64,000 bases of DNA from Candidatus Campbellbacteria bacterium. Its GTDB lineage: Bacteria; Patescibacteriota; Minisyncoccia; Phycocordibacterales; GCA-2747955. Positions 4,913 to 63,761 of this stretch are shown piece after piece. The stretch lies in contig CAMZKW010000001.1 in NCBI GenBank assembly GCA_947311625.1, positions 15,776-79,775 on the forward strand, given 5' to 3'. How positions within the stretch are numbered: position 1 is the first letter of the stretch; each line of letters begins with the position of its first letter. Under the pieces are notes generated by a model. It did not search any database. It was given only the letters and a program-made list of their open reading frames with translations, and was not told the DNA's origin. Made by a program: the position numbers and the translations under genes.

Positions 4913-4931
4913 CTTTTTAAAAAGTTATTTT
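4906..4931. terminator. AT hairpin aaaataacttttt/aaaaagttatttt shared by convergent genes
   Basis: 13-bp inverted repeat read directly. It overlaps both stop codons. Confidence 0.45.
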
Positions 4932-5683
4932 CTTTTTTTATAAATTAAAGAAATTAGGGTGAATGATAAAATCAAAAGTAAATATCAAGAACCTATTTTT
5001 GAAAAAGAAACTCATTGTCATTTTTCAATCTGATTTGGGTAGAGTCAGATTTGATTAAATGTTGATATATTTTCAGCAAGTCAGATAAAAATTGAAAGAC
5101 TAAAAAAAGGTATTAAAAAATTTGTTGAATATTTTTTTTTTTGAATTTTAAAAATAATTTTTGTTTTTCAAAAAAGAATTGTTGAATAAATAAAAAGAAA
5201 ATATCTAAAATCAAAAATAAAGTGATGACTAAAAAAATTTAGATAAATTAAAATTGACAAAAATCAAAGATGAAAGTATTTTGGAAAATTTAGGAAGTCT
5301 AATTTAAAAAGTTTAAATAGTCTTGAAATATAACTTCCAACGGCAGAATAGAAAAATCCAGCAAAAAGAGGAACGGTTAATAAAACAAAATAAGAGTTAT
5401 TGATTTCAGGGTAATTTCAAGAAGAAATACTTTTACTAGTTTTGAATAATTCCATTAGAGTTGCTAAAATATGAAAGATAATAATCACAAAAAATTCTTT
5501 TTTATTTTCTTTTTTACTAAGAATTAAAAATAATTGAAATAAAATAGCAGAAATAAAAATAAAATCATATCTGGAAATATAAACTCAATTTATTTTTTTA
5601 GAAATTATTATTATAAATAATAAAAACAAGCCAAAAAAAGAGGCTCTTATGTTTTTAATTATTAATTCTTTTCAGAAATTCAT
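4925..5683 (-). CDS. multi-pass membrane protein (possibly DUF817-like), 252 aa, about 10 in-frame TGA
   Basis: Hand translation from ATG 5683 to TAA 4925 shows no TAA/TAG. The gene is invisible in the standard-code track because of dense TGA. Confidence 0.45.
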
Positions 5684-20957: not shown

Positions 20958-20986
20958 GCTTTATTATCAATTAATTAAATAAAATT

Positions 20987-21385: not shown

Positions 21386-21460
21386 TTAATATTTAAAATT
21401 TTAAAAAATTATAAATCGTCATAATCATTTTAAAAATGATGCAGACTTAAAAAGAAAAAT

Positions 21461-21994: not shown

Positions 21995-22021
21995 TTTTCT
22001 AACTTAAATAATTAAAAAATT

Positions 22022-22363: not shown

Positions 22364-22387
22364 ATTAATAAAAAATAAATAAAAAAT

Positions 22388-23209: not shown

Positions 23210-23301
23210 AATTTTATATAAATTTTAAAAAATTATAAAGCGAGGTTGGTTAATTTTTTACAAAGTAAAAAAAAACCTGCCGTTAGTTAAAATAAAAAAA
23301 A

Positions 23302-23751
23302 ATGCAAATACACGACGTAAAAAAAAATTCTGCCAATAAAACATCAGTTAGAATTGGTAGAGGAGGTAAAAGAGGTAAAACTTCTGGGGCTGGAATGAAA
23401 GGTCAGAAGGCTAGAGCAGGAACTTCAGGAAGATCAGCAATGAGAGATATTATAAAAAAGATTCCAAAATTAAGAGGACAAGGAGTTAATGGAAACAAAA
23501 ATAAATCAATTATTGTTAATCATTTTCCAGTGAATCTTTCATTGATTAATGAAAAATTTGATAATGGAGAAAAAGTAAGTTCTGAAACTCTATTTGAAAA
23601 AGGAATAATTAAAAGAACAAAAGGTAAATTACCATGAGTTAAAATTTTAGGAAATGGAGATATTTCAAAAAAAGTTGAAATTGAAGGATTAAAAATTTCT
23701 GGAACAGCTAAAGAAAAAATTGAGAAAGCCGGAGGTAAAATAACTGAATAG
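23302..23751 (+). CDS. rplO: ribosomal protein L15, one in-frame TGA; follows S5 directly (no L30)
   Basis: [22 protein letters not shown]. The 92-nt gap after S5 cannot hold rpmD. Confidence 0.85.
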
Positions 23752-23755
23752 GCTT

Positions 23756-25048
23756 ATGAAAGAATTATTTACAAAAATAAAATTTATTTTTACTGATCCA
23801 GTGTTAAGAAGAAAAATTGGTTTCTTGTTAGCAATGATTTTGGTATTTAGATTATTTTCAGCAGTTCCTATTCCTAGTATTGACCAAGTAGCTCTAAAAG
23901 ATTTCTTTGATAAAAATAATTTTTTAGGAATGGTAAATATGTTTTCTGGAGGGGGGCTACAAAGTCTTTCCATAGTTATGCTTGGAGTTATGCCGTATAT
24001 TACAGCATCAATTATTATGCAGGTATTACAGATGTCATTTCCAAGATTAAAAGAAATGCAGAAAGAAGAGGGTGAAGCTGGTAGAAGAAAAATTGCTAAT
24101 ATTTCAAGAGTTGCTTCAGTTTTTATAGCTGGTATTTCGGCATTTGGGTATATGCATCTATTGCAATCATCTCATATACTTCCAAGTCTAGATACTTTTG
24201 ATATGGCAGTTAATGTTATAATGGCTATAGGTGGTGCAGTATTTTTAATGTGAATTGGAGAATTGATTTCAGAATTTGGAATCGGAAATGGTTTGTCATT
24301 GATGATTTTCGCTGGAATTATTGCTTCTGCTCCAGGTACTTTAAGACAAGCTTATGAGGGGGTAATATCTGATTCATCTCAAATACCGATGTTTCTAGGT
24401 ATATTTGCTTTTTTATTGGTATTAATTTATTTAATTGTTTATGTGACTGAAGCTGAAAGGCCAGTTCCAATAAATCAAACAAAAGTTGTAAGGGCTGGAG
24501 AAAAAGCTCAAACTATTCAAACTTTTTTACCAATTAAGTTAAATCAAGCAGGGGTTATTCCAATTATTTTTGCTATTTCAATTTTAATGTTTCCACAAAT
24601 GATTTATGGATTTTTGAGTTCAATAAATATTGTGGGCGATACATCAGTATTGGCAACAGTAGTTGAATTTTTAAATAATCAATTATATCAAGGTATTATT
24701 TACTTCATCTTAGTATTTCTGTTTACTTTCTTTTATACAGCAGTTACCTTTGATCCAAAGGAAATGGCTGAAAATTTACAGAAAGCAGGCAACTTTGTAC
24801 CAGGAATTAGACCAGGGGAAGATACAGAAGAATTTTTTGGTAAAATTACCACAAGGGTAACTTTTATAGGGGCTGTATTTTTAGGTTTAGTTGCAGTTTT
24901 ACCAATGTTAATTGGTGGACTAACTGGAATAACTTATCTAGGAATTGGAGGAACATCTCTTTTAATTATTGTTTCCGTAGGTATTGACTTGATTAGAAAA
25001 GTTAATGCACAGATTTCAGTGAGAGAGTATTTAAATTCAGTAGATTAA
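23756..25048 (+). CDS. secY: preprotein translocase SecY, 430 aa, one in-frame TGA
   Basis: GGAVFLM-W-IGELISEFGIGNG. The TGA aligns with the conserved LMWLGE Trp. Confidence 0.9.
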
Positions 25049-25533: not shown

Positions 25534-25965
25534 ATGTTAATCGGAGAATTTACACATTCAATAGATGACAAAGGGAGAACATCTCTTCCGTCAAAATTTA
25601 AAGGCGAAATGGGAACTCGTGTTGTTTTATCTCGTGGTTTAGAAAAAACTATTACAGTTTACACTGAGGAGTCTTGAAAAAAAATGAATGAAAAATTATC
25701 TGAAACATTATCTTTAACCAATCCAAAACATAGAGAATTTTCTAGGTTTATGCTTTCTGGAGCTCAAGAAGTTGAATTAGATAAACAGGGAAGAATTAGA
25801 GTTCCAGACTTTCTTAAGGAATATGCAGAACTTGATAAAAAACTTGTTTGAACTGGTGCTGGAGATAAGGCAGAAATCTGATCTGAAGAAAAATGAAATA
25901 AATATATTTCAGAAGTATCTTCTAATCCAGAGGAAATTGCTGAATCTTTAGAAGGGATAATTTAA
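25534..25965 (+). CDS. mraZ: transcriptional regulator MraZ, 143 aa, four in-frame TGA
   Basis: GEFTHSIDDKGRTSLPSKF and LDKQGRIRVPDFL (two SpoVT-AbrB repeats). TGA falls at the conserved EIW position. Confidence 0.9.
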
Positions 25966-27016: not shown

Positions 27017-27337
27017 ATGAATATAAAAATAGAAAAAATGAATAATTATCTTTTAAATAAACATAATAAAGTTTTTATTTCTTTTTCCATATCTATTTTT
27101 ATATTATCAATTATTTATGTATATTTTTTATTTATGTCAGTATCTTATACATATGCTTCAGAAAAAAAATCCTATTTATTAAATACTTTAATTACAGAAA
27201 ATGTTGAAAATAAAAATTATATTTTTAAAAAAGAATTAGAATCAGAATCAAAATTAATTACAAAAAATTTTGTTAATATAGAAAAAATAAAATATATAAA
27301 TAGAACAAACCCGGTAGTTGTTAAATTAAGTAAATAA
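27017..27337 (+). CDS. small single-TM protein in the ftsL position
   Basis: Gene order is mraZ-rsmH-this gene. One TM, then a short periplasmic segment. Confidence 0.35.
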   Translation: MNIKIEKMNNYLLNKHNKVFISFSISIFILSIIYVYFLFMSVSYTYASEKKSYLLNTLITENVENKNYIFKKELESESKLITKNFVNIEKIKYINRTNPVVVKLSK

Positions 27338-29084: not shown

Positions 29085-29495
29085 ATGGAATATGGGCAAT
29101 TAATATTAGGATTACTATTCTGTTTAGGATTATTAATCCCGATAGTAGGACTAGTAGTGGCGCTCATAAACTCTGATAGTTTATGGGAAAGAATCGAACT
29201 CTTAATGATTGGTACATTATTTATCATCATTATTGCATGTATACCATACATGCTTATTGTAACCTCTATTTATGATGAAAGAGAAGAGGATACAATTACT
29301 TCAAGGCAGACCCTTGAAGGTGTAAGAAGTGGGTCAGAAACCCACGGGTCAGGAGGCCTATTTACCTTCTTAATTCAGTCTTCCGATAACTATATTGGCT
29401 GGAGGAAGAAGGATGGTGGCTTGCAAAAATTTTCCATGCCTCAAAGCTCGATAGTTTACGAGGAGGATGACTTGAAACATTCTGGATACTACTAG
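29085..29495 (+). CDS. orphan 136-aa protein with two N-terminal TM segments; SD-led and TGA-free; the frame stays open 37 codons past its TAG
   Basis: aaaaaggagaaaaaATG. Extension 29496..29606 ends in TAG TAG at the foot of hairpin 29611..29631. Confidence 0.55.
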   Translation: MEYGQLILGLLFCLGLLIPIVGLVVALINSDSLWERIELLMIGTLFIIIIACIPYMLIVTSIYDEREEDTITSRQTLEGVRSGSETHGSGGLFTFLIQSSDNYIGWRKKDGGLQKFSMPQSSIVYEEDDLKHSGYY

Positions 29496-29727: not shown

Positions 29728-29801
29728 TGTCGAAGGAGAGATTTGAACTCTCGACCTCAGCGTTATGAGTGCTGCGCTCTAACCAACTGAGCTACCCCGA
29801 C
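29728..29801 (-). tRNA. tRNA with anticodon CAU (elongator Met or lysidine-Ile2)
   Basis: gtcggggtagctcagttggttagagc...actCATaac...gagagttcaaatctctc. Confidence 0.8.
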
Positions 29802-34405: not shown

Positions 34406-34478
34406 CCAACCGTAGCTCAGTTGGTAGAGCGCAGAGCTTATACCTCTGTGGTCCCAGGTTCAAGTCCTGGCGGTTGGA
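34406..34478 (+). tRNA. tRNA-Ile(UAU)
   Basis: ccaaccg ta gctcagttggtagagc g cagag ctTATac ctctg ... ccaggttcaagtcctgg cggttgg a. Confidence 0.75.
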
Positions 34479-42281: not shown

Positions 42282-42344
42282 ATATTAAAAAATAAAAAAT
42301 TAAATAAAAAAATAATATAGAATATTTGCACGGTAGTTAATGAT

Positions 42345-42365
42345 GGGTGGCGCTGCGCGCCACCC
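42345..42365. repeat. GC palindrome gggtggcgc/tgc/gcgccaccc at the cassette boundary
   Basis: 9-bp arms identical to those at 40983. Confidence 0.6.
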
Positions 42366-42376
42366 ACATAAATATT

Positions 42377-42404
42377 TTGACTTTATAAAAAAATATGATA
42401 TTAT
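42377..42404 (+). promoter_or_regulatory. cassette promoter (class C): TTGACT, 16-nt spacer, tgaTATTAT
   Basis: attttgactttataaaaaaatatgatattat. Similar to attttgacttaattttataaaaatgttattat at 63785. Confidence 0.5.
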
Positions 42405-42435
42405 TATTTTAGACAAAAAATACAAAGGAGATAAT

Positions 42436-42942
42436 ATGTCTGAACAAAAAAAAACTACCCCAGTGGTTATGGTGTTTTGTTATGAGGGTTTGATATTAGA
42501 TGAGGTTGGTAAATATTTTCAACCAGAGAACACATCATGCATTGAAGGATTTGTGGAGTTAGAAATTCCTGAAAACCCTGAAATTCAATTTTTTGGGCCT
42601 CAGGCTGGTTTTGGAAAAATCCAAATTGCTGTAGTTGATGTAGTGGATATTTTTGGAAAAAATATCCAAGTAAAACCCTACGAAGAGTTTAACAACTTTG
42701 AGATTAGGGTTTTAGAGATTGCTGTTAAAAAAGGTTTAATCACCTTTGATAAGGCAAATGATATTTTATCACTGAAATATCATTGTGATGATGTTCAGTC
42801 ATCCGTTGCAGCAAAAACTGTGAGAAAACGTATCACAGGCGGTATGGTTAAAGTACAAGAAGATTCTGCTTGTTTAAAACATGAAGATGAATTTTCTCAA
42901 TGGTCAAAAACAAGCAAGGAGGTTCGAGGATTTGTTCCATAA
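42436..42942 (+). CDS. orphan 168-aa protein; SD-led and TGA-free; the frame stays open 56 codons past its TAA
   Basis: caaaggagataatATG. Extension 42943..43110 ends at TAA 43111, whose last two bases start the next gene's SD (aaaggag, 43112..43118). Confidence 0.55.
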   Translation: MSEQKKTTPVVMVFCYEGLILDEVGKYFQPENTSCIEGFVELEIPENPEIQFFGPQAGFGKIQIAVVDVVDIFGKNIQVKPYEEFNNFEIRVLEIAVKKGLITFDKANDILSLKYHCDDVQSSVAAKTVRKRITGGMVKVQEDSACLKHEDEFSQWSKTSKEVRGFVP

Positions 42943-43124
42943 GAAAACTTGTTTTCAGAAGCAACAAAGGATGAAAATGGATTTGATGGAAAATCACCAT
43001 TAAGAAGTGGTAGTTTTTCAAGACCACCAAGTAATATTGATATTGATCCTTTTGATGATATGGGTGGATGTAGCAACCCAAATCTTGTGGATCCAAAAAG
43101 TATGCATAGATAAAGGAGTATACT

Positions 43125-43427
43125 ATGACGACAGTGGCAGAATTAGCAGAGTTGGCTGGTGGGCATCTGAGAATTGGGAAATACCTCAATAAAAATCCAG
43201 AAGTTCTTTCGGAATTTTTGGAAGGTGAGACAGAGGCCTCACAGGTGAGAGAATTTGCCGTGACATATTTAGCGGATTACAACAAATTATATTCAGAGGC
43301 TATGGATAGAGTGAAATTTCTCTCTTTTTTTAGAAAAGAAGGAAGTCCTGTATTGAGTAAGATTGAAAATGGCATTGCTATGAAAAATCCCATAGAGACT
43401 TTTGGATATAAATATGTTCCTCCATAG
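43125..43427 (+). CDS. orphan 100-aa protein, SD-led, TAG stop
   Basis: aaaggagtatactATG. GC-richer composition. Confidence 0.5.
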   Translation: MTTVAELAELAGGHLRIGKYLNKNPEVLSEFLEGETEASQVREFAVTYLADYNKLYSEAMDRVKFLSFFRKEGSPVLSKIENGIAMKNPIETFGYKYVPP

Positions 43428-43611: not shown

Positions 43612-45099
43612 ATGACAGAAAAAAAATTAGATGAAAATTTTGTAATTTCAGAAAAAACTGGAAAAAAATATTTTCCAACCATTGGCCTTGAAATTCATGC
43701 AGAATTAGATACAAAATCAAAAATGTTTTGCTCCTGTGAAAATAATCCTTTTGCATCGGAACCTAACACAAATATTTGTGAGGTTTGTATGGCTCATCCG
43801 GGAACTTTACCCGTTGTAAACAAAGAAGCAGTTAAGTCAGTTCTAAAAGTTTCTATTGCAATAAATGGGGATATGGCAGACTTTTCAGAATTTGATAGAA
43901 AAAATTATTTTTACCCAGATATTCCAAAGGCTTATCAAATTTCTCAATTTAAGTATCCTTTAAATTCGAATGGAGAATTGGCAGGAGTAAAGATTACCAG
44001 AATACATTTAGAAGAGGATACAGCTTCTTCATCACATAAAGGAGATATTTCTCTAGTTGATTTCAACAGAGCAGGAGTTCCTTTGATGGAGTTAGTTACT
44101 GAGCCAGTAATTTATAATGCAGATACTGCAATGAATTTTGGAAAAGAATTACAATTACTTTTAAGAACATTGGGTGTCTCCCATGCAAATCTTGAAAAAG
44201 GGGAAATGAGAATTGAAGCTAATGTTTCTGTTTCCGAAGATGGAAATTTTGAAATGTTGGAGGGTGATTTTTCAAAACTCGGTGTAAAAACTGAAGTTAA
44301 AAATTTAAATTCATTTAAGATTGTTGGTGCTGCCATAGACTTTGAAATTAAAAGGCAAATTAAAGCTTTAGAATCTGGAGAAGAAATTGTTCAGGAAACA
44401 AGGGGTTGAGATGAAAATAAATCAGCAACATTTTCCCAAAGAAAAAAAGAAAATTCTGATGATTATAGATATTTTCCAGACCCAGATATTCCAAAGTATA
44501 AAATTTCTAAAATTGAAGAATTTTCAGAGGAAAATTTAAAAAAGGAAATCCCAGAATTACCTTGGGAAAAAAGAGAAAGATATCAAAATGATTTTGGATT
44601 AAATTTAGACCAAATTGAATTCTTTTTGCAAAATCCAAAATATGACAATCTATTTTCAAATACAACTAAATCTTTAAAAGAAGAAAAATCATTTAAATTA
44701 GCCTCTAATTATATATCCACTGTTATCACTGGTCTAGAAAAAAATGAGGAAGGTGAATTTTCTAATTTTACTGAAAATAATATTGTAGATTTAATTAATA
44801 TGATTAATGAAGGGGAGTTATCATCAAGGGGTGCAAAAGATGTTTTGGGAATTATTTTTAAAGAAAAGGGTAATACTAAAAAGATTGCTCAAGAAAAAGG
44901 ATTTATTCAAAAATCAGATCCAGAAGAAATGAAAAAAATTCTTGAAAAAATTTTGGAGGAAAATCCAACTCAGGTTGAATCATATAAAAAAGGAGAAGAA
45001 AAACTTTTACAATTTTTTGTTGGTCAAGGAATGAAAGCAACTCAGGGTTCTGCTAATCCAGGACTTTTAGCAAAACTTTTAAAAGAACTACTTAGTTAG
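43612..45099 (+). CDS. gatB: Asp/Glu-tRNA amidotransferase subunit B, 495 aa, one in-frame TGA
   Basis: IGLEIHAEL, CEVCMAHPGTLP, ETRG-W-DE...DYRYFPDPDIP. Confidence 0.9.
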
Positions 45100-45137: not shown

Positions 45138-45674
45138 ATGATTGAAGTACCATTGAATTGAATTTTTATAAATCCAGCAATAGATATTTTTATTTTTATT
45201 TTTATATCCTATTTATTTTTATTTAGGTATTATAAAATGCTTTTAGATAAAAATTTCAAAAAGATTTCTTGAATTGATTTAGAAGTATCAATTATTTTTA
45301 TAGCACTTGGATATTTAAATTATTCAGAAATAACTATAAATATTTTTAATTTTAAAACTGATTGATTTTTTACAGTTATTTTTATTCAATTAATAATTGA
45401 AACTATTTTTATATTTATATATTGAAAATATTTTAAAATATATTTAGAAAAAATAAAAAAAACTTCAGAAATTATTGAAGAAGAAAATCTAGAAAAAACA
45501 ATTTCAGAATTAAAAACAATACAGAATTTATTGGAAGATGATTTAAATAAATATAAAATACAGGGAAATAAAAATTCTATTGATAAAATGTCTAGTGAAG
45601 TTGAAAAAATTGAAGTAGAAATTTTAAAACTTCAAAAAAAATTGAGAAATTTGAAAAAGAAAAAAAATGATTAA
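45138..45674 (+). CDS. membrane protein with coiled-coil tail, 178 aa, four in-frame TGA
   Basis: Hand translation. Overlaps the next gene by 8 nt. Confidence 0.35.
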
Positions 45675-46563
45675 AAAAAATAAAAATTGTTTGTCGGAAA
45701 ATTTTGAATTTAAAAAAAATATTCCAAAAAAGAAAAAATGTTCTGAATATTTTGGAACTTTAACTCTATGAAAGGAAGTAGGGGAGACACCTTTGCAGGT
45801 TATTGAAAATTTTAAAGAAGAAAATCCAAAATATAAAAATTTAAAATTTGCCTATGCTGGAAGATTAGACCCTATGGCAGAAGGAAAACTTTTAATTTTA
45901 GTTGGTGATACCTGTAAAGAAAGAGAAAAATATTTAAATTTAGATAAAGAATATGAATTTGAAATTTTACTTGGTTTTAAGTCAGATACAAAGGATATTT
46001 TAGGGTTAGCTAAAAAAAATGATTGATACACAACTTGAATTAAGAAAAATTGATTTCAAAAGGAATTGAAAAAATATATTGGAAAAATAAATTTAGAATA
46101 CCCTGTTTTTTCTTCAAGAACAGTTAAAAATAAACCGTTATTTTTATGAGCTTTAGAGGGAAGATTGAATGAGATAGAAATTCCCAGAAAAGAATCTGAA
46201 ATTTATGATTTAAAATTAATTTCTAAAAAAAGAATTTCTAGTGCTTTTTTGGAAAAAGAAATTTTGAGAAAAATTTCCTTACCCAAGGAGGTAAAAGAAG
46301 AGAGTAAAGATTTGGGAGAAAATTTTAGAAGGGATAAAATTATTCCTCACTGAAAAAAACTTTTTGAAAAAGAAAAAGAAAAAGACTTTCTTTTATTGAA
46401 AATTAAAGCTAATGTTTCCAGTGGAACTTATATGAGAACTTTGGCGGAAAAAATTGCCGATGAAATTTTAGAAGATTATGGTTTAGCTTTTTCAATAAAA
46501 AGAACAAAAATAGGAAAAGTTAAAAAAATAGGAAAATTTATTTATTGAAATAAAACTTATTAA
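45667..46563 (+). CDS. TruB-family tRNA pseudouridine synthase, 298 aa, seven in-frame TGA
   Basis: AYAGRLDPMAEGKLLILVGDTCK, YEFEILLGFKSDTKDILG, GKINLEYPVFSS, SGTYMRTLA. Confidence 0.6.
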
Positions 46564-46802: not shown

Positions 46803-46850
46803 AAAAGACTACGAGATAAATTGCTATAGCAATTTATCTCGTAGTCTTTT
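46803..46850. terminator. 22-bp perfect hairpin after rpmG
   Basis: aaaagactacgagataaattgc/tata/gcaatttatctcgtagtctttt. Confidence 0.7.
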
Positions 46851-46885: not shown

Positions 46886-46956
46886 GGGGAGTTAGTTAAA
46901 TGGTATAACCGCGGTCTCCAAAACCGCTATTAGAAGTTCGATTCTTCTACTCCTCG
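46886..46956 (+). tRNA. tRNA-Trp(CCA)
   Basis: ggggagt ta gtta aatggtat aac c gcggt ctCCAaa accgc ... discriminator G. Confidence 0.8.
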
Positions 46957-46999
46957 CAAAAATAAAAATATACTATTTTTTTAGTGTATTTTTTATTTG

Positions 47000-47070
47000 C
47001 TACCAGACAGGGGATCGAACCCCGATTAACGGTACCAAAAACCGTTGTCCTACCATTAGACGATCTGGTA
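47000..47070 (-). tRNA. tRNA-Gln(UUG)
   Basis: taccaga...acggt ttTTGgt accgt...; the U1:A72 pair is typical of tRNA-Gln. Confidence 0.75.
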
Positions 47071-47168
47071 ATACTTTTTTAAAGTGAAAGTATTTTAACA
47101 TTTTTTATTTAAAAAATAAAGAGAAAAAAAATATAAATTTTATTTAAAATTTATATTTTTTACTTTTG

Positions 47169-47239
47169 CAGGCGATGGGGGAATCGAACCCACAACGACG
47201 GTTTTGAAGACCGTAGTTTTACCGTTAAACTAATCGCCT
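47169..47239 (-). tRNA. tRNA(UCA) with Trp-like identity; reads UGA
   Basis: aggcgat ta gttt aacggta aaac t acggt ctTCAaa accgt ... atcgcct g. A1:U72 plus G73 as in bacterial tRNA-Trp. The anticodon arm nearly matches that of the CCA tRNA. Confidence 0.8.
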
Positions 47240-47299
47240 AGATAATTAGTATTTTAACATAAATTTATTTTTTTGTTAATTGTATGATATCATTATTAA

Positions 47300-47904: not shown

Positions 47905-48666
47905 ATGAAAGATATTTTAGATAAAGTAGAAATAATTTATGAAGATGAAAATATTTTAGCAATTTCAAAACCGGTAGGTTTGATTGTTCATTCCGATGGA
48001 AAAACAAAAGATTTAACTTTAGTTGATTGAATATTAGAAAAATACCCTGAAATTAAAGAAGTTGGAGAGCCTATGTCTATAAATACAGGGGATGTTATTT
48101 GAAGACCGGGAATAGTTCACAGGTTAGATAAAGATACATCGGGAGTTTTACTTATCGCTAAAACACAAGAATCTTTTGATGATTTGAAAGAGCAATTTAA
48201 AAATAGATTAACGCAAAAGACCTATAGAGCTTTTGTCTATGGAGATGTTAGATATGACCAAAAAACTATTAATACACCCATTGGTCGTTCTAAAACTGAT
48301 TTTAGAAGATGGGCAACAACTAGAGAAATTCGTGGAGAAGCTCGTGAAGCAGAAACAGAATTTAAAGCATTAATAAAAAATAAAAAAATATCATACATAG
48401 AAGTATATCCAAAGACAGGGAGAACTCATCAAATTAGAGTTCATATGAAATATGATAATCACCCCTTGGTGGCAGACCATTTATATGCGGGGAGAAATTT
48501 TGATAGAGAAAGTCCAGAAAAGAATTTATTTTTTACAACCCAGGCACTCCATGCTTACAAAATAGAATGAAATGATTTGAAAGGTGAAAGGATGGAAATT
48601 AAGGCCCCGCTCCCAAAATCTTTCTTAAAAGGGGAAGAGATTTTAAGAAAAAAAGAAAAAAACTAA
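47905..48666 (+). CDS. RluA-family pseudouridine synthase, 253 aa, three in-frame TGA
   Basis: ILAISKPVGLIVH, HRLDKDTSGVLLIAKT, GRTHQIRVH. Confidence 0.8.
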
Positions 48667-54848: not shown

Positions 54849-55205
54849 ATGAGGATTTTACTTGTTATTATGATGGCAATAGTGTCAATGGCACAAGAAA
54901 TTGACATAAGGGAATTGCTCATACAAAAACACCCTTGTATGAGTATGAAAAAATATGATACAAAGGATGTCTTGAAGAGACAAAAAAAAATTATTTATTC
55001 CAAGCGTTACAAACGTTTGCAATATATAAAAATGTTAGATAGGAGGCTTGAAGAGTGTAGAAAAGTTTCTCCTTTTTTAGCAAAAATAAGATTCCAGGAA
55101 TTATCAAAAAGAGATCGATATGATCTCTTAAAGTATGTTAGCCATACTTCATTTTTGGAATATAATAACAGGCCTCCTTCATCTGGTACGGGGGCAAGTA
55201 AGTAG
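54849..55205 (+). CDS. orphan 118-aa basic protein with signal-like N-terminus, SD-led, TAG stop
   Basis: MRILLVIMMAIVSMAQE.... GC-richer than the flanks. No TGA. Confidence 0.5.
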   Translation: MRILLVIMMAIVSMAQEIDIRELLIQKHPCMSMKKYDTKDVLKRQKKIIYSKRYKRLQYIKMLDRRLEECRKVSPFLAKIRFQELSKRDRYDLLKYVSHTSFLEYNNRPPSSGTGASK

Positions 55206-56337: not shown

Positions 56338-56408
56338 GCGGGATTAGTTAATCGGTATAATATCTGCCTTCCAAGCAGAGGTGGCCAGTTCGATTCTGGC
56401 ATCCCGCA
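56338..56408 (+). tRNA. tRNA-Gly(UCC)
   Basis: gcgggat ta gtta atcggtat aat a tctgc ctTCCaa gcaga ... atcccgc a. Confidence 0.8.
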
Positions 56409-59275: not shown

Positions 59276-60463
59276 ATGGCAGATTACAATAGAGATTTAC
59301 CACACTTTAACGTTGGTACTTTAGGTCACGTGGACCACGGAAAAACTACTCTTACAGCAGCTATCCTAAATACACTTTTCCTTGATGGAAAAATTGATGC
59401 TAAAGGTTCAATCGATGATATCGATAATGCTCCTGAAGAAAAAGAAAGAGGAATTACAATTGCTCTTTCTCATCAAGAATATAAAACAGCAAATAGACAC
59501 TATGCTCACATTGATGCTCCAGGTCACAAAGACTACATCAAAAACATGATTACAGGTGCTGCACAAATGGACGGTGCTATCTTAGTGGTTGCATCAACTG
59601 ATGGACTTATGCCACAAACTAGAGAACATATTTTGTTAGCTAAACAAGTTGGTGTTCCAAAAATGATTGTTTTCTTAAACAAAATTGATATCGTTGATGA
59701 TATGGAAATGGTTGAATTAGTTGAAGAAGAAATTAAAGAAGCTTTAACTCAATATGGATTTGATGGAGAAAATACTCCATTCATAAAAGGTTCAGCTCTT
59801 AAAGCAGCTGAAGCTGAAGCTCCAGATGAATGAACAGCAAAGATTCTTGAATTAGCTGAAGCTATGGATACATGATTTGATATTCCAGATAGAGATGTTG
59901 ATGGAGCATTCTTAATGCCAATCGAAGATATCTTCTCAATCGAAGGTAGAGGAACTGTGGTAACAGGAAAAATTGAAAAAGGTGCAGCTGTTGTTGGAGA
60001 TGAAGTTGAAATTGTTGGAATTAAAGATACAGTTAAAACTACAATTACAGGTGTTGAAATGTTTAACAAATCTCTAGAAAGAGGGGAAGCTGGAGATAAT
60101 GCTGGGGTTTTAATTAGAGGTATCAAAAAAGAAGATATCACTAGAGGGCAAGTTCTTGCAAAACCAGGATCAATTACTCCACACACAGAGTTTGAAGCTG
60201 AAATTTACGTTCTTTCAAAGGAAGAAGGTGGAAGACATACTCCATTCTTCTCAGGTTATAAACCACAATTCTACATCAGAACTACTGATGTGACTGGTGA
60301 AGTAACATTAAACGAAGGAGTTGAAATGGTTATGCCAGGAGATACTGTAACTTTCAAAGTAAAATTACATACTCCAGTAGCTATGGAAGACAATATGAGA
60401 TTTGCTGTTAGGGAAGGAGGTAGAACAGTTGGATCAGGAGTTGTTACAAAAATTATTGCTTAA
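59276..60463 (+). CDS. tuf: elongation factor Tu, 395 aa, two in-frame TGA
   Basis: [18 protein letters not shown]. The TGA in APDE-W-TAKILEL aligns with the E. coli AEWEAKILEL Trp. Confidence 0.95.
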
Positions 60464-60489
60464 TAAAATTTAAGTAAAAACATTGAGAA

Positions 60490-60544
60490 TTTTTCTCTCT
60501 GTGGAGTTTAGATATGTATCATCTAAATTCCACAGAGAGAAAAA
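60490..60544. terminator. 24-bp hairpin (one G.U pair) after tuf
   Basis: tttttctctctgtggagtttagat / atgtatc / atctaaattccacagagagaaaaa. Confidence 0.6.
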
Positions 60545-60614
60545 TATCAATACATTAAAAATTAAAGTTGTAAGTTTAGAACTTTAATTTTGAACTTTTA
60601 AAATAAAATATAAA

Positions 60615-60953
60615 ATGACAGATACTAAAAAAAATAATGTATCAAAATTGAGAATTATTGTGTCAGCCTTTGAACATAAAGTTTTAGATAAAACCGTAGC
60701 AGAAATTTTATCAGCTGTGGAAAAACTAGAAGTTGAAACTAAAGGACCAATTCCATTACCTACAAAGACAAAAAGATGAACTGTAAATAGATCAACTTTT
60801 GTTTATGAACAATCAAAAGAACAATTTGAAATGAAAACTCATAGAAGATTAATTGATATCATAAATCCAAATCAAAAAGTAATGGAAACTCTTACAAATA
60901 TGCAAATTCCAGCTGGAGTTAATGTAGATGTAAAAATGGTAAATGCTAAATAA
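60615..60953 (+). CDS. rpsJ: ribosomal protein S10, one in-frame TGA
   Basis: KLRIIVSAFEHKVLD...GPIPLPTKTKR-W-TVNRS...HRRLIDI. Absent from the track because the TGA splits it. Confidence 0.85.
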
Positions 60954-60998
60954 TCTTAATTTAAGATACCAATTATAAAAAAGGAGCAATATTTGAAA

Positions 60999-61021
60999 GA
61001 GGCGGCCCTTTGGGCCGCCTC
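60999..61021. repeat. GC palindrome gaggcggccc/ttt/gggccgcctc between rpsJ and rplC
   Basis: 10-bp GC stem inside an otherwise AT-rich operon spacer. Confidence 0.6.
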
Positions 61022-61053
61022 CTCTGAGATAACTCCACTAAAAAAAAATTAAA

Positions 61054-61689
61054 ATGAAAACAATTCAAAAATTTATTTTAGGTCAAAAAGATAGAATGAC
61101 TCAAATTTTCGATGAAAATGGAGTTGCTGTTCCAGTAACAGCTATCAATATTGATAAAAATATTATTACTGCTCTTAAAGAAGCAGATAAAGATGGTTAC
61201 TCAGCAGTGCAAGTTGCATCAGTTGAGAAAAAAGACTATAAAGTTAATAAAGCTCAAAAAGGACAATTCGGTGGAAAAGGTTATAAGTTTGTAAAAGAAT
61301 TTAGAACTGATAATACTGAATATAAAGTTGGTGATGAAATTGAAATTACTTCTTTTGAAGAAGGTGATATTCTTGAAATAACATCAGTTTCAAAAGGTAA
61401 AGGGTTCCAAGGTGGAGTTAAAAGACATGGTTTTAAAGGAGGAAGAAGGTCACACGGAAATAAACATGCTGAAAGGGAAGTTGGTTCCATTGGAGCAACT
61501 GGACCACAAAGAGTGTTTAAAGGTTTAAGATCAACAGGTAGAATGGGTTCAGATATAATTACTGTTAAAAATTTAACTTTAGTTAAAATTGATACAGAAA
61601 ATAATAGGGTCTTTGTGAAAGGGGCTATTGCTGGTAAACCAGGAACTTTAGTTGAACTTAAAACTGTTTCTTATCCAACAAAAAAATAA
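61054..61689 (+). CDS. rplC: ribosomal protein L3
   Basis: GKGFQGGVKRHGF...GRMG. Confidence 0.9.
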   Translation: MKTIQKFILGQKDRMTQIFDENGVAVPVTAINIDKNIITALKEADKDGYSAVQVASVEKKDYKVNKAQKGQFGGKGYKFVKEFRTDNTEYKVGDEIEITSFEEGDILEITSVSKGKGFQGGVKRHGFKGGRRSHGNKHAEREVGSIGATGPQRVFKGLRSTGRMGSDIITVKNLTLVKIDTENNRVFVKGAIAGKPGTLVELKTVSYPTKK

Positions 61690-61772
61690 ATTAATATAAG
61701 TTTGCTGAACTTTAAAATCAGCTAAGGGAGAGTAGGACTCAGTCCGAACTTTCCAAATTATCAGGACTGAAA

Positions 61773-61803
61773 GGGTGAAAATTTGCTAAGCAAATTTTCA
61801 CCC
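61773..61803. repeat. hairpin gggtgaaaatttgc/taa/gcaaattttcaccc between rplC and rplD
   Basis: 14-bp perfect stem. Confidence 0.6.
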
Positions 61804-61830
61804 ACGTAGGTCAATAATTAAATTTAAAAT

Positions 61831-62490
61831 ATGAAAACAGAAATTTATGACATAAAAGGTTCAAAAGCTGGAGATATTGAATTATCATCAGTATTTGAAA
61901 CTGAATTGAATAATGACTTGATACATCAAGTTGTTGTTTCAATGATGTCAAATAAAAGAATGAATACAGCTCATTCAAAAGATAGATCAGAGGTTAGAGG
62001 GGGTGGAAGAAAACCTTGAAAACAAAAAGGTACAGGTAAAGCAAGACATGGTTCAAATAGATCACCAATTTGAGTTGGTGGAGGGGTTGCTTTCGGACCA
62101 AGAAATGAAAGAAATTACGACAAAAAAATTAATAAAAAAATGAAAAATAATGCATTTTTCCAAATTCTTTCTCAAAAAATGAAAGATGGAGAAATACTAT
62201 TTGTAGATTCATTAAATTTTGAAAGTCCAAAAACCAAAGAAGCAAAAAGCTTTTTAGAAAATATTTCTAAAATTTCTGGTTTTGAAACAATTCTTACAAA
62301 GAAAAAGAACTCAGCAATTATTGCGAATACAGAATTAAATCAAAACAATATAAAGTCATTTTCAAACTTTTCAAACATTAAAACTGAAGAATTTAGAAAA
62401 TTAAGTCCTCTTGATTTATTAAACTCAAAGTATCTTATAATTGTTAACCCTGAGGCTGCAATGGCAATCTTAGAAGCAAAAAAGAAATAA
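61831..62490 (+). CDS. rplD: ribosomal protein L4, two in-frame TGA
   Basis: [34 protein letters not shown]. Both TGA align with conserved Trp residues of L4. Confidence 0.9.
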
Positions 62491-62520
62491 AATTATAAAT
62501 TTTAAGTAATATAAAATAAT

Positions 62521-62823
62521 ATGACTCAAATTAAAGAAAATATTTCTGCTCCTAAGGTTATCATTAAAAAACCTAGGGTGACAGAAAAAGCCGCAATGGC
62601 ATCAGAAAAAAATGTTTATGTTTTTGAAATTTCAAAAACTGCAAATAAATCTGAAGTAAAAAAAGAAATTGAAAGAATTTACTCAACAAAAGTTGATAAA
62701 GTAAATATTGCTAAAACAGCAGAAAAGAAAACTTTCATTAGAGGAAAAAAAGGAACAAAGGCTGGAATTAAAAAAGCATATGTGTATCTTGCAAAAGATG
62801 CAAAAGCTTTAGAAATTTTCTAG
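62521..62823 (+). CDS. rplW: ribosomal protein L23
   Basis: VIIKKPRVTEKA...VYVFEI...KKAYVYL. Confidence 0.85.
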   Translation: MTQIKENISAPKVIIKKPRVTEKAAMASEKNVYVFEISKTANKSEVKKEIERIYSTKVDKVNIAKTAEKKTFIRGKKGTKAGIKKAYVYLAKDAKALEIF

Positions 62824-62836
62824 TTTTTATTTAAAA

Positions 62837-62918
62837 AACTGAGCCGATAAATCAGTAAAAAATTATAAAATTATGGTAACTGAGCCGATAAATCAGTTTA
62901 AATAAAAAAATTATGGCA
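62837..62918 (+). repeat. tandem about 41-nt duplication covering the rplB translation start
   Basis: aactgagccgataaatcagt occurs at 62837 and 62878. Each copy is followed by an A-rich tract and attATGg. Confidence 0.75.
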
Positions 62919-63761
62919 ATAAAAAGATACAAACCTACATCAAATGGTGTTAGAAATATGACCGTTGTAAAATATAAAGATTATCTTACAACCGATACAC
63001 CTTACAAACCTTTAACAAGAGGTGGTAAAAAAACTGGAGGTAGAAATGCTTTTGGTAGAATTACATCTAGATTTAGAGGTGGTGGAGTAAAAAGAAGTTT
63101 CAGAACTATTGATTTTAAATATAATAAATTTGATATTCCTGCAACTATTGAAACAGTGGAATATGATCCATATAGGTCAGCATTTATTTCTCTTGTTGTT
63201 TATAGAGATGGAGAAAGAAGATATATTTTATCTCCAAAAAATGCAAAAGCTGGAGATAAATTTATAGTTTCAGAAGAAGCTGATATAGAAGTTGGTAACA
63301 GAATGAAATTAAAAAATATTCCAGTGGGAACATTTGTTTATGCAGTTGAAATTCAACCAGGTGCTGGAGCTAAATTAGCTCGTTCAGCTGGTACTTCTCT
63401 TGAAGTTGCAGCTTTAGATGGAGATAAAGTTCATTTAAAAATGCCTTCATCAGAAATTAGAAAAGTTTCTGCTGAATCCTATGCAACAATTGGTGAAGCT
63501 TCAAATCCAGATCATAAACTTGTAAATATTGGTAAAGCCGGTAGAGCAAGACATATGGGTAGAAGACCAAAAGTTAGAGGTTCAGCTATGAACCCAGTTG
63601 ACCACCCATACGGAGGAGGTGAAGGAAAACAAGGAATTGGTATGAGAAGATTAAAATCTAAGTGAGGAAAACCAACAGGTAAAGGTCAAAAAACAAGAAG
63701 ACCAAAGAAATATTCTAATGATAATATTGTTAGAAGAAGAAAAGTTGGAAAGAAAAAATAA
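62913..63761 (+). CDS. rplB: ribosomal protein L2, one in-frame TGA
   Basis: HPYGGGEGK...KSK-W-GKPTGKGQKTR. The TGA aligns with the conserved PWG Trp. Confidence 0.95.

What the first reader, a model, noticed from the sequence alone, without database searches (positions are those of the whole stretch)
46886..47239. UGA is read as Trp (code-4-like) in a walled, CPR-like genome, with paired tRNA-Trp(CCA) and tRNA(UCA)
About 100 in-frame TGA codons (hand count) split otherwise full-length housekeeping genes. Where I can align from memory, TGA falls on invariant Trp. Examples are L2 (PWG), L4 (KPW and SPIW), SecY (LMWLGE), EF-Tu (AEWEAKI), MraZ (EIW), the S8 C-terminal W and RRM (GNLxW). A tRNA with anticodon UCA (47169..47239) has Trp identity features (A1:U72, G73). 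Its anticodon arm is almost the same as that of tRNA-Trp(CCA), which lies about 210 nt away. murJ, PAP2, mraZ-rsmH and membrane-anchored FtsQ/FtsL-like candidates argue against a mollicute. The recoded candidate phyla known to me (Gracilibacteria, Absconditabacteria) are described as UGA=Gly, so a Trp reading here deserves attention.
Basis: partly seen in the sequence, partly recalled or inferred. Interest (0 to 1): 0.7.

Follow-up and report, generated by a model that had tools for sequence, protein, structure and literature searches.

The report
UGA read as tryptophan, CPR bacterium
This stretch comes from a tiny uncultivated "candidate phyla radiation" bacterium that reads the stop codon UGA as tryptophan using a dedicated tRNA; the reading is real, but two groups described the same code change in this bacterial class in 2026, so it is a new example and not a new discovery.

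Summary
A read-through ORF set has 73 ORFs with 110 in-frame TGA against 50 TGG. Long-ORF coverage rises from 46% to 77% when TGA is not a stop.

I checked 38 TGA positions against homologues. Nineteen lie on columns that are mostly Trp (EF-Tu, L4 x2, L2, SecY, MraZ, GatB, RecJ, TsaD, an RluA-family protein, TruB x3, DUF817 x6). None lies on a Gly column. Across relatives TGA swaps with TGG and never with GGN.

The tRNA(UCA) is at 47169-47239, on the minus strand. It has A1:U72, G2:C71, G3:C70 and G73, and lacks the Gly set. It is nearly invariant in two relatives. In one relative it sits in tandem with tRNA-Trp(CCA).

The genome is a Parcubacteria/Paceibacteria (GTDB Minisyncoccia) member. 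Its nearest GTDB representative is GCA_002747955.1, which uses the standard code.

UGA-to-Trp in this class was reported in 2026, for family JAKLIH01 (NAR, April) and for JAKLIH01 plus genus GCA-2747955 (gTranslate preprint, May). I rate this a correct reading and a new member of a known, very recently described kind. RF2 loss cannot be tested in this window.

The parts
47169..47239 (-). tRNA-Trp(UCA), the UGA decoder. Features: A1:U72, G2:C71, G3:C70, discriminator G73, U at position 20, 7-bp acceptor stem, 5-bp T stem, 4-nt variable loop.
   Evidence: Rfam general tRNA model RF00005, 63.8 bits. It differs at 2-3 positions from the copies in relatives L164 and L170.
46886..46956 (+). tRNA-Trp(CCA), the retained UGG decoder. 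Features: G1:C72, G73, normal 5-bp anticodon stem.
   Evidence: Compensatory stem changes in L164 and L170 show it is still functional.
47000..47070 (-). tRNA-Gln(UUG), lying between the two Trp tRNAs. It belongs to the same conserved three-tRNA cluster.
   Evidence: The same cluster is present in L164 and L170.
47251..47279 (-). Promoter-like site TTAACA-17-(TG)TAAAAT. It ends 12 nt upstream of the 5' end of tRNA(UCA).
   Evidence: 10 of 12 matches. The number of such sites in the region does not exceed the shuffle expectation, so this is weak evidence. The block 'AGTATTTTAACAT' is conserved in L164.
46803..46850 (.). Perfect hairpin of about 20 bp with T runs on both sides. It is a bidirectional terminator-like element separating truB from the tRNA cluster.
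   Evidence: 6 overlapping hits against 0.3 expected.
59831..59833 (+). TGA in EF-Tu (gene 59276-60463) at the conserved 'xEW' Trp.
   Evidence: W in 4 of 4 solved EF-Tu.
62017..62073 (+). Two TGA in ribosomal protein L4 (62017-62019 'KPW', 62071-62073 'SPIW').
   Evidence: W in 5 of 5.
63663..63665 (+). TGA in ribosomal protein L2 at 'SPWG'.
   Evidence: W in 3 of 3.
24251..24253 (+). TGA in SecY at 'FLMW(I/L)GE'.
   Evidence: W in 3 of 3. It is also TGA in relatives L037 and L038.
25879..25881 (+). TGA in MraZ at 'EIW'. The orthologous codon in relative L037 is TGG.
44407..44409 (+). TGA in GatB at 'ETRGW'.
   Evidence: W in 21 of 22 homologues from GTDB genomes, Y in one.
4925..5683 (-). 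DUF817 membrane protein with 10 in-frame TGA. Six of them (4985, 5018, 5045, 5081, 5264, 5417) lie on columns that are Trp in 116-118 of 118 homologues.
45667..46563 (+). truB with 7 in-frame TGA, immediately upstream of the tRNA cluster. Three of them (46147, 46351, 46546) lie on Trp-dominated columns.
   Evidence: W in 100, 104 and 81 of 109 aligned homologues; 20 are gapped at the third column.
47905..48666 (+). RluA-family pseudouridine synthase with 3 in-frame TGA. The one at 48028 is on a column that is Trp in 115 of 119 orthologues.

Best explanation
The window comes from a low-GC (27%) CPR bacterium of the class Paceibacteria/Parcubacteria (GTDB Minisyncoccia). It sits in or next to the GCA-2747955 lineage. 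This organism uses translation table 4, in which UGA is a sense codon for tryptophan.

Proposed mechanism. A dedicated tRNA-Trp with anticodon UCA (47169-47239, minus strand) carries the acceptor-stem and discriminator features that TrpRS recognises. It pairs with UGA and, by wobble, with UGG. The original tRNA-Trp(CCA) is kept for UGG. Under AT mutational pressure about 70% of Trp codons have drifted from TGG to TGA. Termination uses only TAA and TAG, read by RF1, and RF2 is expected to be absent.

Shown here: TGA falls on Trp columns; TGA and TGG are interchangeable between relatives; the tRNA exists, is conserved and has Trp-type identity elements; the lineage placement is approximately established.

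Inferred, not shown: charging of the UCA tRNA by TrpRS; any U34 modification; loss of prfB.

The tandem CCA-UCA arrangement in relative L170 suggests the decoder arose by local duplication of tRNA-Trp. An inversion of the UCA-Gln segment would then give the arrangement seen in the window.
For: Column test. I examined 38 TGA positions. Nineteen lie on majority-Trp columns: EF-Tu, L4 x2, MraZ, RecJ, TsaD, GatB at 21 of 22, the RluA-family protein at 115 of 119, L2, SecY, DUF817 x6 at 116-118 of 118 including eight NCBI-named proteins, and TruB x3. Eleven lie on aromatic or aliphatic columns, eight on variable or gapped ones, and none on a Gly column. In DUF817 every homologue column that is at least 80% Trp is TGA in the window. 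The columns that are at least 80% Gly are GGN or Ser, never TGA.

Codon interchange. TGA swaps with TGG at L6, MraZ and RsmH, the RluA-family gene, TruB and RF1. I saw no TGA-to-GGN swap.

Bulk statistics. Long-ORF coverage goes from 46% to 77% without TGA as a stop. TGA is uniform within ORFs, Trp content is 0.89% with TGA counted and 0.28% without, and ORFs end in TAA 57 times and TAG 16 times.

tRNA. Anticodon UCA with A1:U72, G2:C71, G3:C70 and G73. This meets the Trp criteria and fails the Gly criteria quoted from the Codetta methods. It is nearly invariant in L164 and L170. It is tandem with Trp(CCA) in L170.

Lineage. The best GatB hits among GTDB representatives are GCA_002747955.1 (PDQZ01, standard code) and Paceibacteria MAG A3_metabat2_scaf2bin.333 (recoded), both at 67%. 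Named homologues are all Paceibacteria, Parcubacteria or Patescibacteria.

Release factor. The only release factor seen in loci from recoded relatives has the RF1 PxT motif.

Published precedent for this class.
Against: RF2 absence is untested, because the window contains no release-factor gene at all and I could not reach the rest of the genome. No aminoacylation or proteomic evidence exists.

Some homologue sets may include proteins from other recoded genomes that the database translated with table 4, which would inflate the Trp counts. I reduced this risk by using PDB sequences, NCBI-named proteins, hits at or below 60% identity, and DNA-level checks showing TGG in the standard-code genomes L167, L172 and L173.

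Overall sequence similarity does not identify the UCA tRNA as a Trp tRNA. It is 65% identical to Trp(CCA), 66% to Arg(UCG) and 62% to Gly(UCC). The assignment rests on identity elements and on codon context.

Placement in the GCA-2747955 lineage rests on single-gene similarity and an NJ tree of GatB, not on a multi-marker phylogeny.
Confidence: 0.93

Rival explanations
1. UGA encodes glycine (translation table 25), as in Gracilibacteria/JAEDAM01 and Absconditabacteria, the only CPR recoding known until 2026.
For: The genome is CPR and low in GC, and reading through TGA restores the ORFs equally well under table 25. One RluD paralogue in the PDB has Gly or Ala at one TGA position, and T. thermophilus RecJ has Gly at another.
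Against: None of 38 TGA columns is majority Gly and 19 are majority Trp. In the RluA-family orthologue set the same column is Trp in 115 of 119. Gly-conserved columns in DUF817 are never TGA. TGA never swaps with GGN. The UCA tRNA lacks G1:C72, C2:G71 and U73, while the resident tRNA-Gly(UCC) has G1:C72, C2:G71 and G3:C70. Trp content would be only 0.28%. The nearest relatives are Paceibacteria and not Gracilibacteria.
Confidence: 0.01
2. UGA is ambiguous or transitional. It is still a stop for some genes, with RF2 retained, and is read through as Trp by a suppressor-like tRNA for others, as proposed for intermediate stages of reassignment.
For: Closely related genomes still use the standard code: GCA_002747955.1 (L001, L172), L167/L168 and L173. 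The change is therefore evolutionarily recent or patchy. RF2 status is unknown for this genome.
Against: There are 110 in-frame TGA in 73 ORFs, including essential highly expressed genes (EF-Tu, L2, L4, SecY), and about 70% of all Trp codons are TGA. That load is incompatible with efficient termination at UGA. TGA shows no 3' bias within ORFs. Alignments of EF-Tu, L2 and SecY run to the normal C-termini, which end in TAA or TAG. Both 2026 papers report that prfB is absent from the recoded Minisyncoccia genomes, and the NAR paper also found no UGA stops in JAKLIH01.
Confidence: 0.04
3. The TGA codons encode selenocysteine. ARAGORN labels the tRNA 'SeC'. Alternatively they are assembly errors or pseudogene lesions.
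For: The ARAGORN label is 'tRNA-SeC'. That label is given automatically to any tRNA with a TCA anticodon.
Against: The tRNA has an ordinary 7/5 acceptor/T-stem structure and a 4-nt variable loop. It lacks the long variable arm of tRNA-Sec and matches the general tRNA model. TGA sits at Trp positions and not at Cys or Sec positions. The same TGA codons are conserved in independent assemblies from other samples, which excludes sequencing error and pseudogenisation.
Confidence: 0.005
4. The sequence comes from a known code-4 lineage (Mycoplasmatota or a reduced insect or protist endosymbiont) that has been misread as CPR.
For: Low GC, code 4 and a small-genome appearance. The tRNA(UCA) resembles mitochondrial tRNA-Trp(UCA) genes.
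Against: All close homologues of four different proteins are from Parcubacteria, Paceibacteria or Patescibacteria MAGs. L30 is absent between S5 and L15. MurJ and PAP2 are present. Relatives carry MurB, FtsZ and MreB. The mitochondrial contigs share essentially no proteins with the window.
Confidence: 0.01

Closest known systems
UGA-to-Trp recoded Minisyncoccia (Paceibacteria): genus GCA-2747955 and family JAKLIH01 (gTranslate preprint, bioRxiv 10.64898/2026.05.24.727570, May 2026; NAR 2026, PMC13092985, for JAKLIH01)
   Same: Same class of CPR bacteria. Same reassignment (UGA=Trp). A tRNA-Trp(UCA) gene is present and a 5-bp-stem tRNA-Trp(CCA) is retained. As the preprint describes for genus GCA-2747955, standard-code genomes sit among the recoded ones. 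The window's nearest GTDB representative is GCA_002747955.1 itself, which uses the standard code.
   Different: I could not confirm that this genome is one of the 22-plus reported. The preprint's tables are not held, and the NAR tables list none of the relatives' assemblies. JAKLIH01 is in a different order (UBA6257). The window and its relatives are INSDC assemblies, while most recoded GCA-2747955 genomes in the preprint come from GlobDB. Similarity to GCA_002747955.1 is modest (GatB 67%, TruB 55%), so the window may belong to a neighbouring genus.
Mycoplasmatales/Entomoplasmatales (translation table 4)
   Same: UGA=Trp. Low GC with most Trp codons shifted to UGA. Two Trp tRNAs (UCA and CCA), tandem in M. 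capricolum as I recall it and tandem here in relative L170. RF2 loss is expected.
   Different: A different phylum. Here there are peptidoglycan-related genes (MurJ; MurB in a relative). In the window itself the two tRNAs are on opposite strands with tRNA-Gln between them.
Gracilibacteria/JAEDAM01 and Absconditabacteria (translation table 25)
   Same: Same phylum (Patescibacteriota), low GC, and UGA is a sense codon read by a tRNA with anticodon UCA.
   Different: There UGA=Gly and the tRNA carries G1:C72, C2:G71, G3:C70 and U73. Here UGA=Trp and the tRNA carries A1:U72 and G73. The two recodings are independent events in different classes.
Eggerthellaceae (Actinomycetota) UGA-to-Trp MAGs (Microb Genom 2026, PMC13462651) and reduced endosymbionts (Hodgkinia, Zinderia, Nasuia, Stammera, Organicella, Pinguicoccus)
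   Same: The same canonical marker set is used to call the reassignment: UGA at Trp columns, tRNA-Trp(UCA) and prfB loss.
   Different: Unrelated phyla. The endosymbionts have far smaller genomes, and Zinderia uses a 4-bp-stem tRNA-Trp(CCA) instead of a UCA tRNA.

Membership tests
Translation table 4 organism (UGA = Trp) | In-frame UGA codons align with conserved tryptophan columns of homologues from standard-code organisms | tested here: met
   19 of 38 columns are majority Trp and none is majority Gly. All six DUF817 columns that are at least 80% Trp are TGA in the window.
Translation table 4 organism (UGA = Trp) | A tRNA with anticodon UCA carrying Trp identity elements (G73, no A20; A/G1:U72 supportive) | tested here: met
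   The tRNA at 47169-47239 (-) has A1:U72, G2:C71, G3:C70, G73 and U20. Criteria are as quoted from Codetta. No isotype-specific covariance model was available.
Translation table 4 organism (UGA = Trp) | [quoted passage not shown] | not testable with these tools
   The 64-kb window has no release-factor gene, and I could not retrieve the rest of the genome. Loci from three recoded relatives each carry one factor with the RF1 PxT motif. Absence of prfB is reported for the published recoded Minisyncoccia genomes.
Translation table 4 organism (UGA = Trp) | UGA is not used as a terminator | tested here: inconclusive
   TGA is uniformly distributed within ORFs, and conserved proteins reach their normal C-termini, which end in TAA or TAG. 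I did not do a systematic test for C-terminal extensions over all genes.
Translation table 4 organism (UGA = Trp) | UGA and UGG are synonymous, that is they interchange at the same codon between close relatives | tested here: met
   TGA swaps with TGG in L6, MraZ and RsmH, the RluA-family gene, TruB and RF1. I saw no TGA-to-GGN swap.
Translation table 25 organism (UGA = Gly) | UGA at conserved Gly columns, plus a tRNA(UCA) with G1:C72, C2:G71, G3:C70 and U73 | tested here: not met
   No Gly-majority column among 38. The tRNA has A1:U72, G2:C71 and G73. Gly-conserved DUF817 columns are GGN or Ser.
Patescibacteriota class Minisyncoccia (Paceibacteria/Parcubacteria), GCA-2747955 lineage | Phylogenetic placement with GCA_002747955.1 and its relatives | tested here: inconclusive
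   The best GatB hit among GTDB representatives is PDQZ01 = GCA_002747955.1 at 67%, and they share a clade in an NJ GatB tree. TruB is only 55% identical. No multi-marker tree or GTDB-Tk run was possible.
Candidate phyla radiation (Patescibacteriota) in general | Closest homologues are CPR, and ribosomal protein L30 is absent from the spc cluster (a hallmark I recall from Brown et al. 2015) | tested here: met
   Named homologues of four proteins are all Patescibacteria, Parcubacteria or Paceibacteria. S5 (22388-23209) is followed directly by L15 (23302-23751).
Bacterial tRNA-Sec | Extended acceptor/T helix (8+5) and a long variable arm | tested here: not met
   The tRNA is 71 nt with a 7-bp acceptor stem, a 5-bp T stem and a 4-nt variable loop. 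It matches RF00005, not tRNA-Sec.
Near-cognate UGA decoding by a 4-bp anticodon-stem tRNA-Trp(CCA) (NAR 2026) | tRNA-Trp(CCA) has only 4 base pairs in the anticodon stem | tested here: not met
   The tRNA-Trp(CCA) folds with five pairs, GCGGU/ACCGC. This matches the NAR paper's description of JAKLIH01.

The most novel reading that the evidence does not exclude
The recoding in this part of the Paceibacteria tree may be wider and patchier than the 22 genomes reported so far.

Recoded relatives of the window appear at every distance sampled, from 89% down to 59% protein identity (L164, L163/L170, L166, L165, L171, L169, L002). They are interleaved with standard-code genomes at 55-69% (GCA_002747955.1, L167/L168, L173). 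That pattern would need several independent gains or reversions within one family-level clade.

The decoder tRNA(UCA) is also not a recent copy of the resident tRNA-Trp(CCA). The two are 65% identical, while the decoder is about 90% identical to mitochondrial-type tRNA-Trp(UCA) genes. This leaves open that a ready-made UGA decoder spread horizontally between lineages and was not re-invented each time.
Probability: 0.15. Interest if true: 0.7.

Novelty: new member of a known kind. Interest (0 to 1): 0.45.

Why it matters
Stop-codon reassignments are rare in bacteria. Until 2026 UGA=Trp was known only in wall-less or extremely reduced intracellular bacteria, and CPR bacteria were thought to recode UGA only to Gly. 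This window independently confirms that a second, different UGA reassignment exists in the same phylum, in a lineage that has peptidoglycan-related genes.

It also matters in practice. Public records of this clade are mis-annotated with code 11. SecY is split into three ORFs in GCA_015663155.1 and S5 is called a hypothetical protein. A 2022 study deliberately re-called a recoded relative with code 11. Such errors lower completeness estimates and distort metabolic reconstructions.

Standard-code and recoded genomes lie very close together here. That makes the clade a good natural system for asking how a stop codon is captured: the order of tRNA gain, RF2 loss and TGG-to-TGA drift.

Tried and rejected
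(1) Retrieving the source contig by exact protein look-up of L3 found nothing. The cluster look-up showed only that the source is a 117,912-bp NCBI contig.

(2) I spent the single metagenome scan on a tRNA(UCA) pattern (anticodon stem-loop plus T arm). The best matches are TGA-recoded mitochondrial-type contigs encoding cox1, cox2 and nad5. They are not relatives of the window. This only shows that the tRNA resembles genuine tRNA-Trp(UCA) genes.

(3) GatB synteny did not carry the tRNA cluster in GTDB relatives. TruB synteny did, in L164 and L170.

(5) The PDB TruB and RluD hits were too distant to be informative for several columns. I replaced them with orthologue sets.

(6) The last PDB search, for S8, used too strict an E-value and returned nothing. 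The S8, S10, L6, L15 and RRM columns are therefore unverified against standard-code homologues.

(7) Whole-tRNA similarity was rejected as an isotype test, because the UCA tRNA is equally similar to Trp(CCA), Arg(UCG) and Gly(UCC).

(8) The supplementary tables of the gTranslate preprint are not held, and the NAR tables do not list the relatives' assemblies. I could not decide whether this genome is already in a published set.

(9) The FtsQ/FtsL-like candidates (12878-13696, 27017-27337) have no Pfam or PHROG support.
Full report
**1. What is at the coordinates**

ARAGORN and Rfam find ten tRNA genes in the window. Three form a cluster at the reported site:
- tRNA-Trp(CCA) at 46886-46956 on the plus strand;
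- tRNA-Gln(UUG) at 47000-47070 on the minus strand;
- a tRNA with anticodon UCA at 47169-47239, also on the minus strand.

The UCA tRNA reads AGGCGAUUAGUUUAACGGUAAAACUACGGUCUUCAAAACCGUCGUUGUGGGUUCGAUUCCCCCAUCGCCUG. It has a 7-bp acceptor stem with A1:U72, G2:C71 and G3:C70, discriminator G73, a 5-bp anticodon stem, a 4-nt variable loop and a 5-bp T stem with one mismatch. It matches the general tRNA model at 63.8 bits. ARAGORN's 'SeC' label only reflects the anticodon, because the molecule has none of the tRNA-Sec architecture.

The resident tRNA-Gly(UCC) at 56338-56408 has the classical G1:C72, C2:G71, G3:C70 set. The UCA tRNA lacks that set. By the rules quoted from the Codetta paper, the UCA tRNA is Trp-type and not Gly-type. 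Those rules are: Trp needs G73 and no A20, with A/G1:U72 supportive; Gly needs G1:C72, C2:G71, G3:C70 and U73.

A promoter-like TTAACA-17-TG-TAAAAT element ends 12 nt upstream of the UCA tRNA, and a perfect hairpin of about 20 bp separates truB from the cluster.

**2. Is TGA a sense codon here, beyond chance?**

The window is 27% GC.
- Stop-to-stop ORFs of at least 150 aa cover 46% of the window with standard stops, 77% if TGA is not a stop, and 49% if TAG is not a stop.
- A greedy read-through gene set has 73 ORFs covering 84% of the window, with 110 in-frame TGA and 50 TGG.
- TGA positions are uniform along the ORFs (KS p = 0.48).
- The ORFs end in TAA 57 times and TAG 16 times.
- Trp content is 0.89% if TGA is Trp, a normal value, and 0.28% if it is not.

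**3. Which amino acid?**

I masked TGA as X and aligned the proteins to solved structures from standard-code organisms, and to larger homologue sets.

| Protein | What TGA aligns with |
|---|---|
| EF-Tu | W in 4 of 4; Y |
| L4 | W and W, each 5 of 5 |
| MraZ | F; L; W; Y |
| RecJ | one W/W/G column in the conserved 'W-H-x-G-V-x-G-I' motif; four variable or gapped |
| TsaD | V/L/L; Y/W/W |
| L2 | W in 3 of 3 |
| SecY | W in 3 of 3 |
| GatB | W in 21 of 22 GTDB-genome homologues |
| RluA-family synthase | W in 115 of 119; a Y/W/K/F mix; F/I/W |
| TruB (hits at or below 60% identity) | W in 100, 104 and 81 of 109 aligned (20 gapped at the third); four variable |
| DUF817 membrane protein (10 TGA) | six columns W in 116-118 of 118, including eight NCBI-named proteins; one F/W/Y; three aliphatic |

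In DUF817 every family column that is at least 80% Trp is TGA in the window. The columns that are at least 80% Gly are GGN or Ser and never TGA.

Totals over 38 columns: 19 are majority Trp, 11 are aromatic or aliphatic, 8 are variable, and none is majority Gly.

**4. Codon-level evidence from relatives**

Exact-sequence look-ups led to contigs from close relatives at about 80% nucleotide identity. They come from hydrothermal and marine metagenomes (L037-L042, including GCA_015663155.1) and share the S8-L6-L18-S5-L15-SecY-MraZ-RsmH order. In records called with code 11, SecY is split into three ORFs.

Between the window and these relatives most TGA are conserved as TGA. Three swap with TGG: L6 at 21653, MraZ 'EIW' at 25879 and RsmH at 26543. 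The same TGA/TGG switching occurs at invariant Trp columns of the RluA-family gene, TruB and the RF1 gene of relatives. I never saw TGA swap with GGN. So TGA and TGG behave as synonymous codons.

**5. The tRNA locus in relatives**

- L164 (89% RluA-family identity) has the same Trp(CCA)+ / Gln- / UCA- cluster after truB.
- L170 (GCA_054034375.1) has Trp(CCA) and the UCA tRNA in direct tandem, 17 nt apart on the same strand, followed by tRNA-Gln.
- The UCA tRNA differs at only 2-3 positions among the three genomes.
- The Trp(CCA) genes show compensatory stem changes, for example G6:C67 to A6:U67.

Both genes are therefore under purifying selection. The tandem arrangement fits an origin by local duplication, with a later inversion in the window's lineage. 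That last step is inference.

The two tRNAs are only 65% identical. The UCA tRNA is equally similar to Arg(UCG) and Gly(UCC). Overall similarity therefore says nothing about isotype.

**6. Release factors**

The window has no release-factor gene. Loci from three recoded relatives each carry one factor with the RF1 motif RVQRIP(A/T)TE...GGQ, and that gene itself contains in-frame TGA. I could not test for RF2 loss in this genome.

**7. Which organism?**

The best GatB matches among GTDB species representatives, both at 67%, are:
- PDQZ01, 'Ca. Campbellbacteria DOLZORAL124_30_42';
- JALVSO01, 'Ca. Parcubacteria A3_metabat2_scaf2bin.333'.

The next matches (50-60%) include Kaiserbacteria, Nomurabacteria and 'Patescibacteria group' labels, plus some labelled Saccharibacteria. 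No Gracilibacteria, SR1 or mollicute hit is near.

PDQZ01 is GCA_002747955.1. This is a dolphin-mouth MAG that forms a clade beside order UBA9983 in class Paceibacteria, together with glass-sponge symbionts. Shrimp-associated vent MAGs have also been assigned to a 'GCA-2747955 family'. It uses the standard code: long-ORF coverage is 0.83 against 0.84 in one locus and 0.92 against 0.97 in another. JALVSO01 is classified as Paceibacteria and is recoded (0.63 to 0.90).

The window, PDQZ01 and JALVSO01 form one clade in an NJ GatB tree.

Recoding status of the sampled relatives:
- Recoded: L164, L163/L170, L166, L165, L171 and L169, at 89-59% identity.
- Apparently standard: L167/L168 (69%) and L173 (60%).

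Other CPR and cell-envelope indicators:
- There is no L30 gene between S5 and L15.
- MurJ (2.9e-45) and PAP2 are present.
- Relatives carry MurB, FtsZ and MreB.
- The FtsQ/FtsL-like candidates have no family support.

**8. Comparison with what is known**

- The 2021 Codetta survey listed bacterial UGA=Trp only for Mycoplasmatales/Entomoplasmatales and insect endosymbionts, and UGA=Gly for Gracilibacteria and Absconditabacteria.
- A May 2026 review of the phylum still mentions only the Gly recoding.
- An August 2026 paper still counts only three phyla as previously known to have UGA=Trp and adds Actinomycetota as a fourth, with no mention of Patescibacteriota.
- A NAR paper of April 2026 reports a new UGA=Trp case in the Patescibacteriota family JAKLIH01 (order UBA6257, class Minisyncoccia). 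It found a tRNA(UCA) in two of four genomes, no RF2 and no UGA stops.
- The gTranslate preprint of May 2026 reports 12 JAKLIH01 genomes and 10 genomes of genus GCA-2747955 as UGA=Trp. Three GCA-2747955 genomes still use code 11.

The window fits the second lineage or a close neighbour. Its nearest GTDB representative is the namesake genome, which uses the standard code. Its habitat signal (vents, marine invertebrates) matches the lineage.

I could not confirm whether this particular genome is in the published sets. The modest similarity to GCA_002747955.1 (TruB 55%) leaves room for a neighbouring genus.

**9. Verdict**

The mechanism is the canonical code-4 mechanism: a dedicated tRNA-Trp(UCA), a retained tRNA-Trp(CCA), termination by RF1 at TAA and TAG, and presumed RF2 loss.

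It is not categorically new, because the same reassignment in the same class was described in 2026. It is best filed as a new member of that recently described kind.

This analysis adds some detail:
- the tandem and inverted arrangements of the tRNA pair;
- TGA inside the RF1 gene;
- the interleaving of recoded and standard-code relatives;
- the systematic code-11 mis-annotation of public relatives.

Noticed in passing
window 47169-47239 compared with L054, L070, L116, L045, L053, L108, L118, L086: The window's tRNA(UCA) is 60-64 of 71 nt identical to tRNA-Trp(UCA) genes on mitochondrial-type contigs. Those contigs encode cox1 with an insertion, cox2 and nad5, and are read with code 4. It is only 65% identical to its own genome's tRNA-Trp(CCA). 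The D arm, anticodon arm, variable loop and T arm nearly coincide. The search pattern fixed 23 positions and AT-rich tRNAs converge, so this may mean nothing. It does leave the origin of the decoder open.
   Followed up: partly
window 34406-34478 (+): A tRNA-Ile with anticodon UAU is present. From memory, most bacteria read AUA with a lysidine-modified tRNA-Ile(CAU). Two CAU tRNAs (5963-6033 and 29728-29801) are also present. I did not examine whether TilS is absent or how AUA is decoded.
   Followed up: no
window 10908-12677 (+); also 42340-43427, 29085-29495, 54849-55205: These GC-rich ORFs (34-41% GC against 27% for the window) use only TGG for Trp. The 589-aa ORF at 10908 has 13 TGG and no TGA. 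They have no significant Pfam family, and the three I looked up (10908, 42340, and not the others) are singleton clusters in the protein collection. The 589-aa ORF has only a marginal PHROG 'tail assembly chaperone' hit (E = 4.6e-4). They look like recent acquisitions from a standard-code donor or a mobile element. A TGA-free foreign gene inside a recoded genome would be worth examining.
   Followed up: partly
window 20751-25048 compared with 59276-63761: The ribosomal protein supercluster is split. S14-S8-L6-L18-S5-L15-SecY lies at 20.7-25 kb, while tuf-S10-L3-L4-L23-L2 lies at 59.3-63.8 kb, 34 kb downstream on the same strand. SecY is followed by mraZ-rsmH and not by adk-map. There is no L30 gene between S5 and L15.
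   Followed up: no
window 56338-56408 (+): The tRNA-Gly(UCC) has discriminator A73 (GCGGGAU...AUCCCGC-A). From memory, bacterial tRNA-Gly normally has U73, and A73 is the archaeal/eukaryotic state. I did not check this in relatives.
   Followed up: no
L170 7252-7541 (GCA_054034375.1): Downstream of the tandem tRNA-Trp(CCA)/tRNA(UCA) pair, the last 12 nt or so of the UCA tRNA plus about 50 nt of flank are repeated exactly. The two copies bracket a GC-rich insert of about 170 nt that begins AGGCGAUGAGGGAGUCGAA and ends CGAAUCUCCCUCAUCGCCUG. This looks like an acceptor stem plus T arm without the D and anticodon arms. It could be a disrupted second UCA tRNA copy or a tRNA-like element.
   Followed up: no
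L042 (GCA_015663155.1), L041, P0007/P0008, L002 (JALVSO01): Public records of this clade are annotated with code 11. SecY is split into ORFs of 165, 115 and 125 aa, L15 is split, and S5 is named 'hypothetical protein' under a 'Bacteroidia bacterium' or 'Pacebacteria' label. A 2022 paper states that it re-called MAG A3_metabat2_scaf2bin.333 with code 11, although its locus gains long ORFs (0.63 to 0.90) when TGA is read through.
   Followed up: partly
L165 6563-7516, L166 6471-7436, L163 2627-3586: The RF1 gene of recoded relatives itself contains in-frame TGA codons at positions that are TGG or Phe/Tyr in sister genomes. In the code-11 annotation of GCA_054034375.1 it is split into two ORFs.
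   Followed up: yes
PMC7426153, Table 1: The glass-sponge (Vazella pourtalesii) MAG 'Patesci_98' has 15 contigs, 0.71 Mb, 28.4% GC and N50 66 kb, and the paper reports that three of its five Patescibacteria MAGs (not named) cluster with GCA_002747955.1. Its size, GC and contiguity resemble the window's source (27% GC, 117.9-kb contig). The paper does not mention an alternative code. Whether it is the source genome is pure speculation.
   Followed up: no
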